64,000 nt of DNA from Candidatus Heimdallarchaeota archaeon (GCA_021399345.1 JAAFKI010000112.1:64001-128000); one strand, 5' to 3'. Positions 27,237-49,271 are shown, counted from the first letter of the stretch. Numbers and translations: made by a program. Notes: generated from the letters alone by a model not told the origin.

Positions 27237-27312
27237 ATGCAACATAACAGGACACACATATGTATCTTGTTTTGCCACATACATATGTGACAAGAATAGA
27301 CGCATATAAAAA
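27237..27312 (-). promoter_or_regulatory. TATA box followed by three tandem 21-bp palindromic operators (ATGTGWC-N7-GWCACAT-like)
   Basis: Plus-strand ATGTGACAAGAATAGACGCAT (27285-27305), ATGTATCTTGTTTTGCCACAT (27260-27280) and ATGCAACATAACAGGACACAC (27237-27257), abutting minus-strand TTTTTATA. Confidence 0.75.
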
Positions 27313-27359
27313 GTTTTCTCAAAAAAATTGCGATTCTATAAAAATAAAAGAAAGAAAAA

Positions 27360-27800
27360 TTATACTCGTTCTTTTTCAGTTGCAGGAATCTTCGTTTGTT
27401 CTGATTCCTTTGTTTCCTTTGATATTTTAGTAACCAAGGTCAGTGAGGGGAGTCTATCGATACCTGCTTCCTTCATGAAGTCCTTGTAAGTATCTGTTAA
27501 GAAGAATTCCTTTAGTTTATACCAAGAGGTTTTAATGAGAACCGGAAAATCATGCACGTCTAATAAACATTTGTGCTTTTCTAACTCTTCTCCTTCCTTT
27601 AGATCTTTCTGGGTTTTGGATTTCAGTATATCTCCACATTTTAAGCAGAATTTCCACCTTGCGGGATGTATATTTAACTTTTCATTTGTTTTCACATAGA
27701 GAATCAATCCTTCGTTAAAAGGTATCCTCCAAATAGAGACAGCATATTGTTTTGCTATCTCCCTAATCTGTGATTTTTCAGCATCAGTTATATCTGGCAA
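27360..27800 (-). CDS. CxxCG...HxC zinc-binding family paralog 2
   Basis: TTG start at 27800 gives the family N-terminus (M)PDITDAEKSQIREIAKQYA; ARWKFCLKCG...HKC...FPVLIKTSWYKLKEFFL. Confidence 0.88.
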   Translation of the reverse strand: MPDITDAEKSQIREIAKQYAVSIWRIPFNEGLILYVKTNEKLNIHPARWKFCLKCGDILKSKTQKDLKEGEELEKHKCLLDVHDFPVLIKTSWYKLKEFFLTDTYKDFMKEAGIDRLPSLTLVTKISKETKESEQTKIPATEKERV

Positions 27801-27818
27801 TGAAAATCCTACTCCTAC

Positions 27819-27847
27819 GTGTACTAGAATCTGACACATATAATAAA
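27819..27847 (-). promoter_or_regulatory. Promoter of paralog 2 with an operator next to the TATA box
   Basis: Minus strand: TTTATTAT then ATGTGTCAGATTCTAGTACAC (27839-27819). Confidence 0.7.
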
Positions 27848-27959
27848 TCTTCTGTATAACTTAGGTTTAATGATCTAGTAAGTAAATTATCTCAAATTAT
27901 TGGAAAGTATTATAAAACCTGGTGAGTTAATATTGTGATTAAACAGTTGATAGAGCAAG

Positions 27960-29882
27960 ATGAAAGGAATTTTCGTTAAAGAGTTAGAAGAGATAGAATC
28001 GCTCATAGATAAGGGAAAGTATAACGTGGCTTTAGAGCATATTGATTCAACATCATCTCAGGAAGCAATTTCTGCAGTGGAGAAGACAAAATGTACTATT
28101 TTTAGATATCGGGTATATTCTGAATTAGCTAAGTATGCTGAAGCTATAAAGCTTGGTGAAAAAGCCTTTGAGGAAAGCCAAAAACTAAATAATAAACACC
28201 TAATGTTTGATTCACTCGTATATTTTCCTTACATTTACTTTATTGCTGGAGAATATGAATTGAGAAAGGAAAAAGTTAAACTTGCAGGTCAAATACTTGA
28301 ATCAATTGAAGATAAAGATTCTTCAGATTATTTTCTCAGAAAAGCTATATTTCTAACTATGAAAAGTGATAGTTTTGAACAAGCTATAGAAAATCTTGAA
28401 GAAAGTATTGAAATCTCTAAGAAATTTGGATTTGATAGAATATTAGTTGATTCATACCATACGCAAGCTTGTACTTATCTTTGGTCTGGAGGAATCACAA
28501 AATCTCTTAAACTAAATCAACAAGCATTAGGTCTTGCTGAAGAAATAGATTACTACTGGGGAATCACCAGTGCTATGTTTTCTTTAGCCGTTACCTATTT
28601 GCATAAAGGGGAATTAGAACAAGCCCTGGATTATTTCTTGCAAACAAAAACGCTAATTGAAGAAGGTGATGACTTATATTTTATAGCCTGCTTGTATTTG
28701 GATCTAGGTTATTTATATTGGTTAAAAAGAGATCTTAAATCCTCACTTGATTATTATAAGAAATCTGTTTCCACTTTTAAAGAAGCTAAAGTTGTAAGTA
28801 CACGTCATTTACCATGGACTCTATTCCGAATGAATTTAGTTCTTATTGAAATGGAACATTATGATGAAGCACTCAAGAATATTGAACAGATTGAGCTCTT
28901 ATTCCTAATGAAAGATACTCCTGTTTTCAAACTATTCTACCATCTTGCAAAAGCTGTTTTTCTTAAAACAAAAACAGATGATGATTGTTGGAATGAAGCT
29001 ACACTTCTTCTCGAGGAAGTTGCTGATGAAGAACTTGTTTATCTTGAGTTAAATGGTTTAGTAATCTTCCATCTATGTGATGTATATCTAAAGAAAATAC
29101 AAACTTCAAATGATTTGGATGCATTTGGGAAACTAAAAAATAGGATACAAGAGTTAGCAGAAATGGCTAGAGAGCAAAAATCTGTCATTCTGCTTGTTCA
29201 ATCTCTCTTGTTGCAATCAAAGCTAGAACTAATTGATTTAGACATTGAAAAAAGCCAATCGCTATTAGGAAAAGCACAATCTATTGCAGAGGAAAAAGGA
29301 CTTACTAAACTTGCTAAGGTTGTTTCAAATGAATTTGATATTCTCTTAGATCAATTGAGTACTTGGGAAGATATGTCAACGTATTTACCAAGCTTAGAAG
29401 AAAGGTTTGAATTTACTCATATTGAAAATTATCTAAACAAAATGATGAGAGACTATATTATACATGAAAGCATTGTTGATGAAGAAGAAGCACCAGTATT
29501 TTTCTTACTGCTGAATAAGGAAGGAGTCATTCTGTTTTCTGAGAAATTCAATGAAGTATCTCTGGAAGGTGAATTACTTGGAGAAATATTATCATTTATC
29601 AATAGACTCAATTCAAGATCAATGTTTCCGTCTGAAACAACCAAGAGGATAAAACATAAAAATTATACAGTTGCGATTAATGCTCAAGAAGACATATTTC
29701 TAGTATATGCTTTCATTGGAAAATCTTATCATGCTTTGCAGAGAATAAATTCCCTCATCAAGGAATTTCGCACTTTTACAAGTGGGTGGCAGGAGTTTTT
29801 TGGTAAACTAAAGAACAAGGAAGAGTTGTCTTATTCTGATAGAAAACAATTATCTGAATACCTAGAAGGTGTTTTTTTCTAA
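27960..29882 (+). CDS. TPR-repeat protein with a C-terminal longin/roadblock-like domain (paralog A)
   Basis: TPR motifs (LAVTYLHKGELEQALDYF, LGYLYWLKRDLKSSLDYYKKS), conserved SNEFDILLDQLSTW, and a C-terminal PVFFLLLN...YAFIGKSY alpha/beta domain. Confidence 0.8.
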   Translation: MKGIFVKELEEIESLIDKGKYNVALEHIDSTSSQEAISAVEKTKCTIFRYRVYSELAKYAEAIKLGEKAFEESQKLNNKHLMFDSLVYFPYIYFIAGEYELRKEKVKLAGQILESIEDKDSSDYFLRKAIFLTMKSDSFEQAIENLEESIEISKKFGFDRILVDSYHTQACTYLWSGGITKSLKLNQQALGLAEEIDYYWGITSAMFSLAVTYLHKGELEQALDYFLQTKTLIEEGDDLYFIACLYLDLGYLYWLKRDLKSSLDYYKKSVSTFKEAKVVSTRHLPWTLFRMNLVLIEMEHYDEALKNIEQIELLFLMKDTPVFKLFYHLAKAVFLKTKTDDDCWNEATLLLEEVADEELVYLELNGLVIFHLCDVYLKKIQTSNDLDAFGKLKNRIQELAEMAREQKSVILLVQSLLLQSKLELIDLDIEKSQSLLGKAQSIAEEKGLTKLAKVVSNEFDILLDQLSTWEDMSTYLPSLEERFEFTHIENYLNKMMRDYIIHESIVDEEEAPVFFLLLNKEGVILFSEKFNEVSLEGELLGEILSFINRLNSRSMFPSETTKRIKHKNYTVAINAQEDIFLVYAFIGKSYHALQRINSLIKEFRTFTSGWQEFFGKLKNKEELSYSDRKQLSEYLEGVFF

Positions 29883-29915
29883 ATATAAAAATAATCAAAA
29901 CGTTATTCCAAGAAA

Positions 29916-48205: not shown

Positions 48206-48345
48206 TCTTTTTCACCTCCTAGAATTTTTCTTTTTTCTCCTGAATCTTTTTCAAGTAATTGTAAAAAATTAATGAACCCTTCATGGGCTCGGATTTGATC
48301 GTTCAGAGAGAGAGTTGTTTTAAACAGTGTATTCACCTTCACCAA

Positions 48346-48606
48346 TTAATAGTAAAGCGACCCAAACAGGAGCAATTTTTGAGCAAGTGCTTTGTCCTTA
48401 GCCTTTCTCACTTTGTTCTCTATGCTTTCCCTGGAAATCTCTTTATCAGGTCGGGACTTTTTGTTATCGCGATCAGATAATCCTTCCATAAGTTGCTTGA
48501 TGAAAGAATAATAGAGATCCTCATCAATAAATTCAAAATCATACAAAACTTTCATATTGTCAATTACTATTTGGCGCACTGTTTCTACTTGAACTTTGGA
48601 TGCCAT
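48346..48606 (-). CDS. 86-aa hypothetical protein (cassette B)
   Basis: GAGGTGA RBS; acidic N-terminal half and basic C-terminal half. Confidence 0.7.
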   Translation of the reverse strand: MASKVQVETVRQIVIDNMKVLYDFEFIDEDLYYSFIKQLMEGLSDRDNKKSRPDKEISRESIENKVRKAKDKALAQKLLLFGSLYY

Positions 48607-48643
48607 TCATTTCACCTCTATTTGAAAATGGTAAGACTCTAGC

Positions 48644-48790
48644 TTACCCGTAAATCAGGTATTTCCTGATTGGAAATCTAGAACGAGCTTTTGCTCTTCT
48701 AGTGCGACGAGCTCTTTTGAGCTTATTCAACTCCTTGCGGAGTGCCTTAATCTTTCGGTCCAAAATTATACTTACTTCTTGTTTATACAT
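48644..48790 (-). CDS. 48-aa basic coiled-coil peptide (cassette B)
   Basis: GAGGTG RBS; MYKQEVSIILDRKIKALRKELNKLKRARRTRRAKARSRFPIRKYLIYG. Below the ORF-track cutoff. Confidence 0.78.
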   Translation of the reverse strand: MYKQEVSIILDRKIKALRKELNKLKRARRTRRAKARSRFPIRKYLIYG

Positions 48791-48801
48791 TTCTTTACAC
48801 C

Positions 48802-48990
48802 TCAAATGTTTGCAAATCTCCTCAGGTTCAGGTTAGAGTAGAAGCTAATGGTTGCAGTCAGGTATTGCTCATAGATATCCAAGTTCTTGTCTGAATATCG
48901 GTTGGATAGAGTTTTCATGAGTTTATTGAGATCCTCGTAAAGTCTTCGAACCTCGGGATCCAGCAGTTTTTTTATTTCGTTTTTGTTCAT
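48802..48990 (-). CDS. 62-aa helical protein (cassette B); N-terminus related to the 48-aa peptides
   Basis: MNKNEIKKLLDPEVRRLYEDLNKL aligns with MNHDEVSNLLDQKVRGLQKELKQL; AGGTG RBS. Confidence 0.72.
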   Translation of the reverse strand: MNKNEIKKLLDPEVRRLYEDLNKLMKTLSNRYSDKNLDIYEQYLTATISFYSNLNLRRFANI

Positions 48991-49015
48991 TTTTTTACAC
49001 CTTAGGATTGGTTCT

Positions 49016-49271
49016 ATTACAGCATTGTGCAGTAACCTATTTAAGCATCGTTGTGCAGTAATAAATTACCGCATTTTGCAGTAATAAAAGAAATATTATT
49101 AAAAACGACAAAATGACCATATAGGCGATATTTATGCTTATGAACTCGTATAACCCCTTCAATAAATGCCATAAATAGGGGCAAATATTTCCGCTTAAGT
49201 GATTTTATTTGCAGTAATAATATGACTTTGGGAAATTATTACCTTGAGATATACATATATATATTACTGCA
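49016..49271. promoter_or_regulatory. Divergent promoter region with an ATTACNGCA-N3-TGCAGTAAT operator array
   Basis: Full sites at 49016-49036 and 49065-49085; half-sites at 49054-49062, 49210-49218 and 49263-49271. The outermost sites abut the two TATA boxes. Confidence 0.8.

What the first reader, a model, noticed from the sequence alone, without database searches (positions are those of the whole stretch)
27237..49271. Each zinc-protein module has its own palindromic operator abutting the TATA box: a candidate new archaeal transcription-factor system
Seen: in four modules the same motif sits right after the TATA box of both the zinc-protein gene and the neighbouring gene or operon. Module 27k has ATGTGWC-N7-GWCACAT (27237, 27260, 27285; own promoter 27819). 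Module 33k has ATGTRAC-N6-GTYACAT (33540, 33563; own 34096). Module 46-47k has ATGTMGSAC-N3-GTSCKACAT (46764, 46836; own 47469). Module 49k has ATTACNGCA-N3-TGCAGTAAT (49016, 49065; own half-site 49263). Paralogs 4 and 5 also have TATA-adjacent sites (44487, 45424). Established: sites just downstream of TATA are where archaeal repressors block RNAP recruitment. Inference: the paralogs are dimeric autoregulatory repressors with diversified specificities. Target promoters have multiple full sites and self promoters have one degenerate site, a typical negative-feedback layout.
Basis: partly seen in the sequence, partly recalled or inferred. Interest (0 to 1): 0.92.

Follow-up and report, generated by a model that had tools for sequence, protein, structure and literature searches.

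The report
Zinc-protein regulators with private operators
A genus of Heimdall (Asgard) archaea carries up to eight copies of a small zinc protein of unknown fold, and each copy sits beside a promoter with its own conserved palindromic DNA site just after the TATA box, so the family is probably a new kind of gene-specific transcription repressor, though binding has not been shown.

Summary
All listed sites exist at the stated coordinates, directly after TATA-like boxes. The 27k and 33k sites are weak matches taken singly, but they cluster and are conserved.

In related Heimdallarchaeota MAGs the half-sites are conserved (pairwise identity 0.82-0.86). Spacers (0.40-0.67) and the rest of the intergenic DNA (0.43-0.52) drift.

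The 47k and 49k palindromes occur nowhere else in the 3.27-Mb assembly. In relatives the 49k palindrome occurs 0-2 times per genome, and where two copies occur they lie 49 bp apart, as in the window.

In diverged orthologues of the 49k module, all five TGCAGTAA sites are replaced at the same positions by TGATKACA. This change coincides with one long branch of the protein tree.

An RNA or DNA hairpin reading finds no covariation support.

The protein family (CxxC...HxC, about 135-150 aa) matches no Pfam, NCBIfam, PHROG or PDB entry. It was found in 18 of 18 sampled species of one genus and in 0 of 12 genomes from neighbouring families.

Best reading (about 0.65): these are local, autoregulated DNA-binding regulators of a new family, most likely repressors that occlude the promoter. 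DNA binding, dimerisation and the sign of regulation remain untested.

The parts
25796..26134 (-). p25, a zinc-protein paralog with no promoter of its own. It is the last gene of the operon 219 aa / 92 aa / p25.
   Evidence: Alignment of the paralogs. The 55-bp gap upstream holds no TATA and is conserved in orthologues.
26557..27216 (-). Target gene of module 27k: a 219-aa protein with an N-terminal hydrophobic segment and no Pfam match. It is followed by a 92-aa SCO4226-like gene (26190-26468).
27237..27311 (-). Target promoter of module 27k: a TATA box (27304-27311) followed directly by three tandem 21-bp units ATGTGWC-N7-GWCACAT (27285-27305, 27260-27280, 27237-27257).
   Evidence: Sequence. 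Across 7 genomes, half-sites show 0.85 identity, spacers 0.54 and the upstream intergenic DNA 0.46, permutation p<5e-5. No hairpin covariation was found.
27360..27800 (-). p27, a zinc protein whose start is the TTG at 27800.
   Evidence: The orthologues start at the aligned MPDI motif.
27817..27845 (-). Own promoter of p27: TTATATGTGTCAGATTCTAGTACACGT, that is, a TATA box plus ATGTGT-N11-ACACRT.
   Evidence: Conserved down to orthologues of 51% protein identity while the flanks are not.
32187..33530 (-). Target gene of module 33k: a 447-aa NosD / beta-helix protein with N- and C-terminal hydrophobic segments.
   Evidence: Pfam PF13229 and PF05048.
33540..33588 (-). Target promoter of module 33k: a TATA box plus ATGTAGC-N6-ATTACAT (33563-33582) and GTGTGAC-N6-GTTACAA (33540-33559).
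   Evidence: In 3 genomes, half-sites show 0.82 identity, spacers 0.67 and upstream DNA 0.43.
33633..34073 (-). p33, a zinc protein.
34096..34122 (-). Own promoter of p33: TTATATGTAACTTGTTCTAGTACAC.
44487..44886 (+). p44: a TATA-adjacent palindrome TTGTAC-N10-GTACAA (44487-44510) followed by a frameshifted, degenerate family member (ATG at 44525; second frame from 44584).
   Evidence: The same arrangement is seen in L019, and the gene is intact in a more distant relative.
44914..45390 (-). p45, a zinc protein.
45409..45436 (-). Own promoter of p45: TTAATATGTCGGTATGGATTCAATCAT.
46400..46736 (-). Target operon of module 47k: a 48-aa coiled-coil protein with a basic tail (46590-46736) and a 47-aa membrane microprotein (46400-46543).
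   Evidence: No family match was found.
46764..46856 (-). Target promoter of module 47k: a TATA box plus ATGTCGCAA-N3-GTCCTACAT (46764-46784), and a second near-perfect palindrome ATGTCGCAC-N3-GTCCGACAT (46836-46856). An extra half-site lies at 46971-46977.
   Evidence: Both palindromes are unique in the genome. In 5 genomes, half-sites show 0.86 identity and the spacer 0.40.
47018..47458 (-). p47, a zinc protein.
47469..47497 (-). Own promoter of p47: TTTAAATGATGTAGGACTTAATAATACAT.
   Evidence: ATGTAGGA...TACAT is conserved down to orthologues of 50% identity.
47563..48990 (-). Target operon of module 49k: genes of 62 aa, 53 aa (a basic-tail paralog of 46590-46736), 86 aa, 138 aa and 49 aa (membrane).
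49016..49271 (.). Divergent control region of module 49k. It holds ATTACAGCA-N3-TGCAGTAAC (49016-49036), TGCAGTAAT (49054), ATTACCGCA-N3-TGCAGTAAT (49065-49085), TGCAGTAAT (49210) and ATTACTGCA after the p49 TATA box (49263-49271).
   Evidence: The sites are conserved in 7 genomes, and all five are replaced by TGATKACA in L023, L006, L024 and L033. In relatives there is at most one locus per genome.
49300..49698 (+). p49, a zinc protein.
   Evidence: Its core model has pLDDT 87.7.

Best explanation
The CxxC...HxC proteins are sequence-specific DNA-binding regulators of a previously undescribed family, restricted to one Heimdallarchaeial genus.

Proposed mechanism:
- Each paralog, probably as a symmetric dimer, recognises its own 20-21-bp inverted repeat. 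The general frame is ATGT-N13-ACAT, and the inner positions and spacing differ between paralogs.
- The repeat begins at the 3' edge of the TATA box of the neighbouring gene or operon. These neighbours encode a secreted protein, a beta-helix surface protein or membrane microproteins.
- A weaker or differently spaced copy sits in the regulator's own promoter.
- Occupying about -24 to -4, and further tandem sites downstream, would block RNA polymerase recruitment or promoter opening. That would give repression with negative autoregulation.
- Whole modules (regulator, operator and target) were duplicated, and protein and operator then diverged together.

Shown here: the sites, their position, their conservation pattern, their restriction to the modules, and the concerted switch.

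Inferred: that the zinc protein is the binder, that it is a dimer, and that it represses. The signal that relieves repression is unknown.
For: (1) ANATOMY
In p27, p33, p47 and the eighth copy outside the window, the zinc gene is followed on the same strand by an intergenic region with the sites and then by the target gene. In p49 the arrangement is divergent.

(2) FOOTPRINTS
- Half-site, spacer and upstream-DNA identities are 0.85 / 0.54 / 0.46 for p27, 0.82 / 0.67 / 0.43 for p33 and 0.86 / 0.40 / 0.52 for p47.
- Own-promoter sites are conserved down to about 50% protein identity while their flanks are not.

(3) SPECIFICITY
- The full 47k and 49k palindromes are unique in the genome.
- The 49k palindrome occurs 0-2 times per relative genome. 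Where two copies occur they are always a pair 49 bp apart. The reversed-pattern control gave 0.
- The matrix of own half-sites against target regions is diagonal for p47 and p49.

(4) CO-EVOLUTION
- All five 49k sites change from TGATKACA to TGCAGTAA at the same positions.
- The change falls on one branch of the protein tree, of length 0.47 with SH-aLRT 100.
- The fixed residue differences on that branch cluster just before the CxxC motif and at the start of the helix after the zinc ribbon.

(5) TREE AND OPERATOR ARCHITECTURE AGREE
- p27 and p33 group together and use 7-N7/N6-7 operators.
- p47 and p49 group together and use 9-N3-9 operators.

(6) THE ONLY COMMON COMPONENT
The zinc protein is the only protein family common to all modules.

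(7) PROTEIN PROPERTIES
The cores are mostly basic, with pI 8.4-9.8.

(8) ESTABLISHED KNOWLEDGE (my own)
Archaeal repressors such as MDR1, LrpA and Phr act from sites overlapping or just downstream of the TATA box.
Against: - No experiment or structure shows DNA binding.
- The fold matches no known DNA-binding domain. Foldseek found nothing at E<=0.001, and the best VIA-align Z was 5.0-5.1, to generic helical bundles.
- The 27k and 33k sites are individually near chance level, and their motifs overlap, so 'one operator per paralog' is not strict.
- The right half of the p27 and p33 own-promoter sites (CTAGTACAC) is invariant across both clades. It could instead be an initiator or leader element.
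- p45 and p44 have no identified target.
- The operator switch in the p49 clade is a single evolutionary event, so it carries no statistical weight.
- Transcription start sites are not mapped, so the TATA assignments rest on sequence alone.
Confidence: 0.65

Rival explanations
1. The palindromes are real operators, but they are bound by other proteins. Candidates are the module-encoded basic-tail coiled-coil microproteins (46590-46736, 48644-48805) or unlinked regulators. Under this reading the zinc proteins are co-regulated cargo or cofactors, for instance partners of the neighbouring TPR proteins.
For: - The two basic-tail microproteins are module-specific paralogs with a zipper-plus-basic-region look.
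- The zinc protein has no recognisable DNA-binding fold.
- TPR proteins lie next to three modules.
Against: - The microproteins exist only in the 47k and 49k modules. The 27k, 33k and eighth modules have the same kind of operator without them.
- At least five different specificities are needed, and the zinc proteins are the only paralog family present in every module.
- The own promoters of the zinc genes carry the module's half-site.
Confidence: 0.17
2. The zinc proteins do bind these sites but act as activators or dual regulators rather than as repressors. One possible mechanism is stabilising TBP/TFB on weak TATA boxes.
For: - Several of the TATA boxes are imperfect (TTAAATAG, TTTAAATG, TTAATATG).
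- Conserved extra elements lie upstream of the p47 and p49 TATA boxes, which suggests more complex control.
Against: - Sites spanning roughly -24 to -4, with further sites in the leader, overlap the region that RNA polymerase and the TFB B-linker must occupy. By established archaeal examples this is repressor geometry.
- Three tandem sites downstream of one TATA box fit a roadblock better than an activator.
Confidence: 0.1
3. The inverted repeats are nucleic-acid structure elements (leader RNA hairpins or cruciforms), or a generic promoter or initiator signature of this genome, and not protein operators.
For: Sites 2 and 3 of the 27k target would lie in the transcribed leader. Each unit could form a 7-bp stem with a 7-nt loop.
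Against: - There is no covariation: the score is 0.117 against 0.118 in shuffles. Position 6 of every arm is a conserved non-pair.
- The first unit starts inside the TATA box, so it cannot be fully transcribed.
- TATATGT-N13-ACAY occurs only 3 times in the genome.
- The motifs differ between modules.
Confidence: 0.04

Closest known systems
Archaeal promoter-occluding repressors (for example MDR1 of Archaeoglobus, LrpA and Phr of Pyrococcus, TrmB-type regulators); cited from my own knowledge
   Same: - Palindromic operators overlap or directly follow the TATA box.
- The regulator is encoded locally and carries a site in its own promoter.
- Repression by blocking RNA polymerase recruitment is the expected outcome.
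   Different: - Those proteins use winged-helix, HTH or ribbon-helix-helix domains with Pfam models.
- This family has no Pfam, NCBIfam or PDB match. Its predicted fold is two helices, a C3H zinc ribbon, then two helices.
ALOG domain transcription factors of plants (LSH3 with DNA, PDB 8P5Q; PMC10927535), and the N-terminal DNA-binding domain of tyrosine recombinases from which ALOG is thought to derive
   Same: - The architecture is the same: a small four-helix bundle with a zinc-binding insert (three Cys, one His) between helices 2 and 3, followed by a disordered tail.
[quoted passage not shown] Those are the two places where the fixed differences of the p49 operator switch cluster.
   Different: - No sequence similarity was found. 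No member matched the ALOG Pfam model even at E<=10.
- 8P5Q and the recombinases did not appear among the structural matches.
- The ligand order differs: CxxC...HxC here, HxxxC...CxC in ALOG.
- ALOG binds a non-symmetric 7-bp motif as a monomer, whereas these sites are 20-21-bp inverted repeats.
- This is a lead, not a membership.
Expanded families of local bacterial repressors with private operators (TetR, LacI or phage CI/Cro-like paralogs); cited from my own knowledge
   Same: The regulator, operator and target were duplicated as a unit and then diverged to give near-orthogonal protein-operator pairs. Regulation is negative and autogenous.
   Different: The DNA-binding fold is different. 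The host is archaeal, so the machinery is TATA/TBP-based. The family is confined to a single genus.

Membership tests
Promoter-occluding local repressor (a functional class, not a protein family) | The operator overlaps or directly follows the TATA box of the regulated promoter. | tested here: met
   In all modules the site starts within 0-2 nt of a TATA-like box, which lies 45-100 nt upstream of the start codon. Transcription starts are not mapped.
Promoter-occluding local repressor (a functional class, not a protein family) | The operator is an inverted repeat with conserved half-sites and a free spacer. | tested here: met
   Half-site against spacer identity is 0.85/0.54, 0.82/0.67 and 0.86/0.40 in the three modules tested.
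Promoter-occluding local repressor (a functional class, not a protein family) | The regulator's own promoter carries a cognate site (autoregulation). | tested here: met
   Own half-sites recur in the cognate target region. The matrix is diagonal for p47 and p49, while p27 and p33 overlap.
Promoter-occluding local repressor (a functional class, not a protein family) | The protein binds the operator and lowers transcription. | not testable with these tools
   This needs EMSA or DAP-seq and in vitro transcription.
ALOG / tyrosine-recombinase N-terminal four-helix DNA-binding domain | A four-helix core with a zinc-binding insert between helices 2 and 3. | tested here: met
   The AlphaFold models show H6-25, H28-42, strands 49-52/58-60/81-84 carrying CxxC...HxC, then H86-93 and H96-105. 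pLDDT is 87.7 and pTM 0.81.
ALOG / tyrosine-recombinase N-terminal four-helix DNA-binding domain | Sequence or profile similarity to the ALOG domain (Pfam ALOG_dom). | tested here: not met
   None of the 65 members matched it, even at E<=10. A profile search against PDB sequences gave no relevant hit.
ALOG / tyrosine-recombinase N-terminal four-helix DNA-binding domain | Structural superposition on 8P5Q or on recombinase core-binding domains. | tested here: inconclusive
   These entries are not among the listed matches of Foldseek or VIA-align. The best Z of 5.0-5.1 is to unrelated helical bundles. No direct pairwise superposition tool was available.
Known zinc-ribbon or zinc-finger protein families (Pfam, NCBIfam, PHROGs) | A match above the curated threshold. 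| tested here: not met
   Only sub-threshold noise was found: DUF7695, Zn_ribbon_RPB9 and SBP, with E of 0.01 or worse.

The most novel reading that the evidence does not exclude
A new zinc-stabilised four-helix DNA-binding fold has arisen, or survives, in one Heimdallarchaeial genus. It has radiated into five to eight nearly orthogonal regulator-operator pairs that control surface-protein and microprotein genes.

Its architecture (a zinc ribbon between helices 2 and 3, with recognition by helix 3 and the base of the ribbon) parallels the eukaryotic ALOG / recombinase-derived domain. A distant evolutionary link between an Asgard lineage and that eukaryotic transcription-factor class is therefore not excluded.
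Probability: 0.5. Interest if true: 0.82.

Novelty: new variant of a known kind. Interest (0 to 1): 0.72.

Why it matters
- Few transcription regulators of Asgard archaea have been characterised, and nearly all known archaeal regulators use bacterial-type HTH or RHH folds. A lineage-specific family with an unmatched fold and readable operator logic would add a new DNA-binding domain class.
- It would provide a natural set of diverged protein-operator pairs for studying how specificity evolves after duplication. The concerted five-site switch is one example.
- It offers directly testable reagents: 21-bp sites and 110-residue core proteins, from organisms that are otherwise hard to study.
- It would also be the first handle on the regulation of the unknown surface-protein and microprotein operons in this genus.

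Tried and rejected
- Homodimer prediction (complex prediction, two copies of residues 14-135) scored 0.11 against a mark of 0.42. That is no verdict, and I do not use it either way.
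- Structure searches with two models (pLDDT 80 and 88) against PDB by Foldseek, against PDB representatives by VIA-align, and against the ESM Atlas gave no convincing match.
- The ESM Atlas feature search returned nothing above 0.84.
- Pfam, NCBIfam and PHROGs scans of the zinc proteins and microproteins found no family.
- A profile search against PDB sequences found nothing.
- An Rfam search of the window and of 45700-46450 found nothing.
- A generic scan for perfect 7-bp-arm palindromes after TATA-like hexamers gave 48 of 27,177. It did not pick up the modules because the window's sites are imperfect, so it cannot be used as an enrichment test.
- Two literature searches found no description of this family.
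- I considered mobile-element terminal repeats and rejected them. The modules are syntenic across genomes at 50-99% identity, and the repeats stay in place.
- I considered p45 as co-regulator of the 47k operon, because both share ATGTCGG. I did not retain it, because in L022 and L023 the p45 own-promoter site (ATGTTA..) no longer matches the operon sites.

Full report
CONTEXT

The window is G000:C41:64001-128000 of a 3.27-Mb, 199-contig assembly with about 33% G+C. Related loci come from MAGs titled Candidatus Heimdallarchaeota. The closest are CSMAG_2184 (99%) and CR1378_bin_8 (97%), and AB_125 is at 87%.

Between 25.8 and 49.7 kb lie seven copies of a small protein of 112-158 aa. An eighth copy lies 60 kb upstream, at C41:30747-31214.

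All copies share an N-terminal MPDI motif and the signature ARW+xCLKCG ... HxC ... PVLIxTSWxKLKxFFL. C, C and G of the CxxCG motif, and T, W and F of the later motif, are invariant in 65 sequences. H and the third C are more than 90% conserved.

One copy, p44, is frameshifted and has lost the HxC.

THE OBSERVATION

Read on the coding strand of the regulated gene, each starts within 0-2 nt of a TATA-like box:
- Module 27k target: TTTTATATG|CGTC-N7-GTCACAT, followed by two more 21-bp units at centre distances of 25 and 23 bp.
- Module 33k target: TTATATGTAGC-N6-ATTACAT, then GTGTGAC-N6-GTTACAA.
- Module 47k target: TTATATATG-ATGTCGCAA-N3-GTCCTACAT, plus a second, nearly perfect palindrome 72 bp upstream.
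- Module 49k target: TTAAATAG-GTTACTGCA-N3-TGCTGTAAT, plus ATTACCGCA-N3-TGCAGTAAT and three single TGCAGTAAT copies.
- Each zinc gene's own promoter: a TATA box followed by one related site.

Against chance:
- The full 47k and 49k palindromes are unique in the assembly at up to 2 mismatches, apart from one 2-mismatch hit to the 49k pattern on another contig (C110).
- Five of the 100 genomic TGCAGTAA[TC] copies lie within about 250 bp.
- ATGT-N13-ACAT is about ten-fold enriched in the cluster, with 5 found against about 0.5 expected.
- The strict TATATGT-N13-ACAY arrangement occurs three times in the genome, and two of those are the p27 and p33 own promoters.
- The 27k and 33k target sites are individually weak, with 24 and 33 equally good matches genome-wide. 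However, the only closely spaced pairs of such matches are in these two modules.

COMPARATIVE EVIDENCE

tblastn of the paralogs against the 37 fetched loci gave orthologues of each paralog at 35-99% identity.

In the 27k target region of seven genomes (64-100% protein identity):
- Mean pairwise identity is 0.85 at the 42 half-site columns, 0.54 in the 21 spacer columns and 0.46 in the intergenic DNA upstream of the TATA box.
- The permutation test of half-sites against spacers gives p<5e-5.

The same pattern holds for the 33k target (0.82 / 0.67 / 0.43) and the 47k target (0.86 / 0.40 / 0.52).

Own-promoter elements stay conserved where the flanks have randomised:
- TTATATGTGTCAGATTCTAGTACAC for p27, down to 51% protein identity.
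- ATGTAGGA...TACAT for p47, down to 50%.

A hairpin reading is not supported:
- On the 27k alignment the covariation score equals the shuffled mean (0.117 against 0.118).
- Position 6 of every arm is a conserved non-pair.
- The first unit begins inside the TATA box, so it cannot be fully transcribed.

MODULE SPECIFICITY AND CO-EVOLUTION

The own half-sites ATGTAGGAC (p47) and ATTACTGCA (p49) recur only in their own target regions. ATGTGTC (p27) and ATGTAAC (p33) are related and match each other's regions at one mismatch.

In 31 genomes of the genus and order:
- The 49k palindrome occurs 0-2 times per genome.
- Where two copies occur they are always a pair 49 bp apart, as in the window.
- The reversed-pattern control gave none.

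The 49k control region keeps its five site positions in distant genomes (L023, L006, L024, L033). There, every site reads TGATKACA (equivalently ATGTMATCA) instead of TGCAGTAA.

On the protein tree the TGCAGTAA-type p49 proteins form one clade on a long branch, of length 0.47 with SH-aLRT 100. The residues fixed differently across that branch cluster in the strand just before CxxC (H43Y, S47A, L49W, R50K) and at the strand and helix after the zinc ribbon (L83P, N85S, I88V, N91D).

The tree also groups p27 with p33, which use 7-N7/N6-7 operators, and p47 with p49, which use 9-N3-9 operators.

This is one switch, not a statistic. It is nevertheless what a protein-operator pair evolving together would look like.

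THE PROTEIN

No Pfam, NCBIfam or PHROG family matches. A profile search of 1.84 billion representatives found only 24 proteins.

The family was found in 18 of 18 sampled species of the same GTDB genus. It was found in none of 12 genomes (80-94% complete) from other families of the order.

AlphaFold models (pLDDT 80 for p27; 87.7 with pTM 0.81 for the p49 core) give helix-helix, then a three-stranded zinc ribbon carrying CxxC...HxC, then helix-helix, then a disordered tail.

Neither model has a convincing match in the PDB or the ESM Atlas. The best Z of 5.0-5.1 is to generic helical bundles. The cores are mostly basic.

The architecture recalls the plant ALOG domain. [quoted passage not shown] However, no sequence or structural match to it was obtained, so this is a lead only.

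MECHANISM

The most economical reading has four parts:
- Each zinc protein binds its module's inverted repeat, probably as a dimer.
- It occupies the DNA between the TATA box and the transcription start, plus tandem downstream sites in the 27k target.
- It thereby blocks RNA polymerase recruitment, as established for archaeal repressors acting at this position.
- A weaker or differently spaced site in its own promoter gives negative feedback.

The p27 own-promoter site is ATGTGT-N11-ACACRT, against N9 in the target.

Regulator, operator and target were duplicated together:
- p33 and the eighth copy both precede NosD-like beta-helix genes.
- The 47k and 49k operons share a paralogous basic-tail microprotein.
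- p25 lies inside the operon controlled from the 27k sites, which suggests a cascade.

The inducing signal is unknown. MalT-like TPR proteins flank three modules and are candidate partners.

RIVALS

- Another binder, such as the basic-tail microproteins or an unlinked regulator. This is less parsimonious, because only the zinc family is common to all modules.
- An activator role. This is disfavoured by the position of the sites.
- RNA or DNA structure, or a generic promoter signature. This is disfavoured.

VERDICT

This is a new protein family doing a known kind of job, and it is of clear interest for archaeal transcription and for the evolution of binding specificity.

The scan had noted the same stretch before, in first-reader notes only. 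One of those notes, a putative ncRNA at 45.95-46.35 kb, is revised here. About 265 nt of that stretch is a multi-copy repeat of this genome, and DNA from 45821 up to about 46175, which includes the repeat, has no match at the orthologous place in close relatives.

Noticed in passing
window 45821-46360: This GC-rich, ORF-free stretch had been noted earlier as a possible ncRNA. Only 46175-46360 is conserved at the orthologous place in close relatives. The segment 45913-46177 is a multi-copy repeat of this genome: one copy on C16 matches at 84% over 265 nt, and its last ~85 nt occur on 10 further contigs at 85-98%, several of them at contig ends. It looks like an inserted repeat or a mobile-element fragment. 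Rfam gives no hit even at E<=1.
   Followed up: partly
G000 C3:34977-35002 (outside the window): TTATATGTGTGGAAACATACACACAT, that is, a TATA box plus a perfect ATGTGTG-N8-CACACAT. It lies upstream of a small-GTPase-like gene and next to an ArsR-like HTH gene. It may be a family-type operator outside the cluster.
   Followed up: no
window 47497-47520 and 49170-49245: Conserved elements lie upstream of the TATA boxes of the p47 and p49 own promoters: AGGAAATTTGTGCC, GGGAAATTATTACC, and the palindromic GGCAAATATTTCCG. They are conserved in orthologues down to about 50% identity. They may be sites for a second regulator.
   Followed up: no
window 27960-29882 (+), 29916-32054 (-), 38696-40642 (-); G000 C41:28182-30632 (-): Four paralogous 640-816-aa proteins have MalT-like TPR regions and a shared C-terminal domain of about 130 aa. 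Three of them directly flank zinc-protein modules (p27, p33 and the eighth copy). They are possible sensory partners.
   Followed up: no
window 44525-44886: p44 is frameshifted near 44590 and has lost the HxC ligands. The same state is seen in the 93%-identical locus L019, so it is not a sequencing error of this assembly. A more distant relative has an intact gene.
   Followed up: partly
window 49300-49698 compared with 47018-47458: The TGCAGTAA-type p49 proteins carry SSRLRICLKCGAID, identical to the neighbouring p47, whereas other p49-clade proteins have SARWKICLKCG. This may be partial gene conversion between the adjacent paralogs.
   Followed up: no
window 46590-46736, 48644-48805, 48802-48990: These are paralogous microproteins of 48-62 aa with a heptad helix. 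Two of them carry a protamine-like basic tail (KKARRxxRxKAR). None has a family match.
   Followed up: partly
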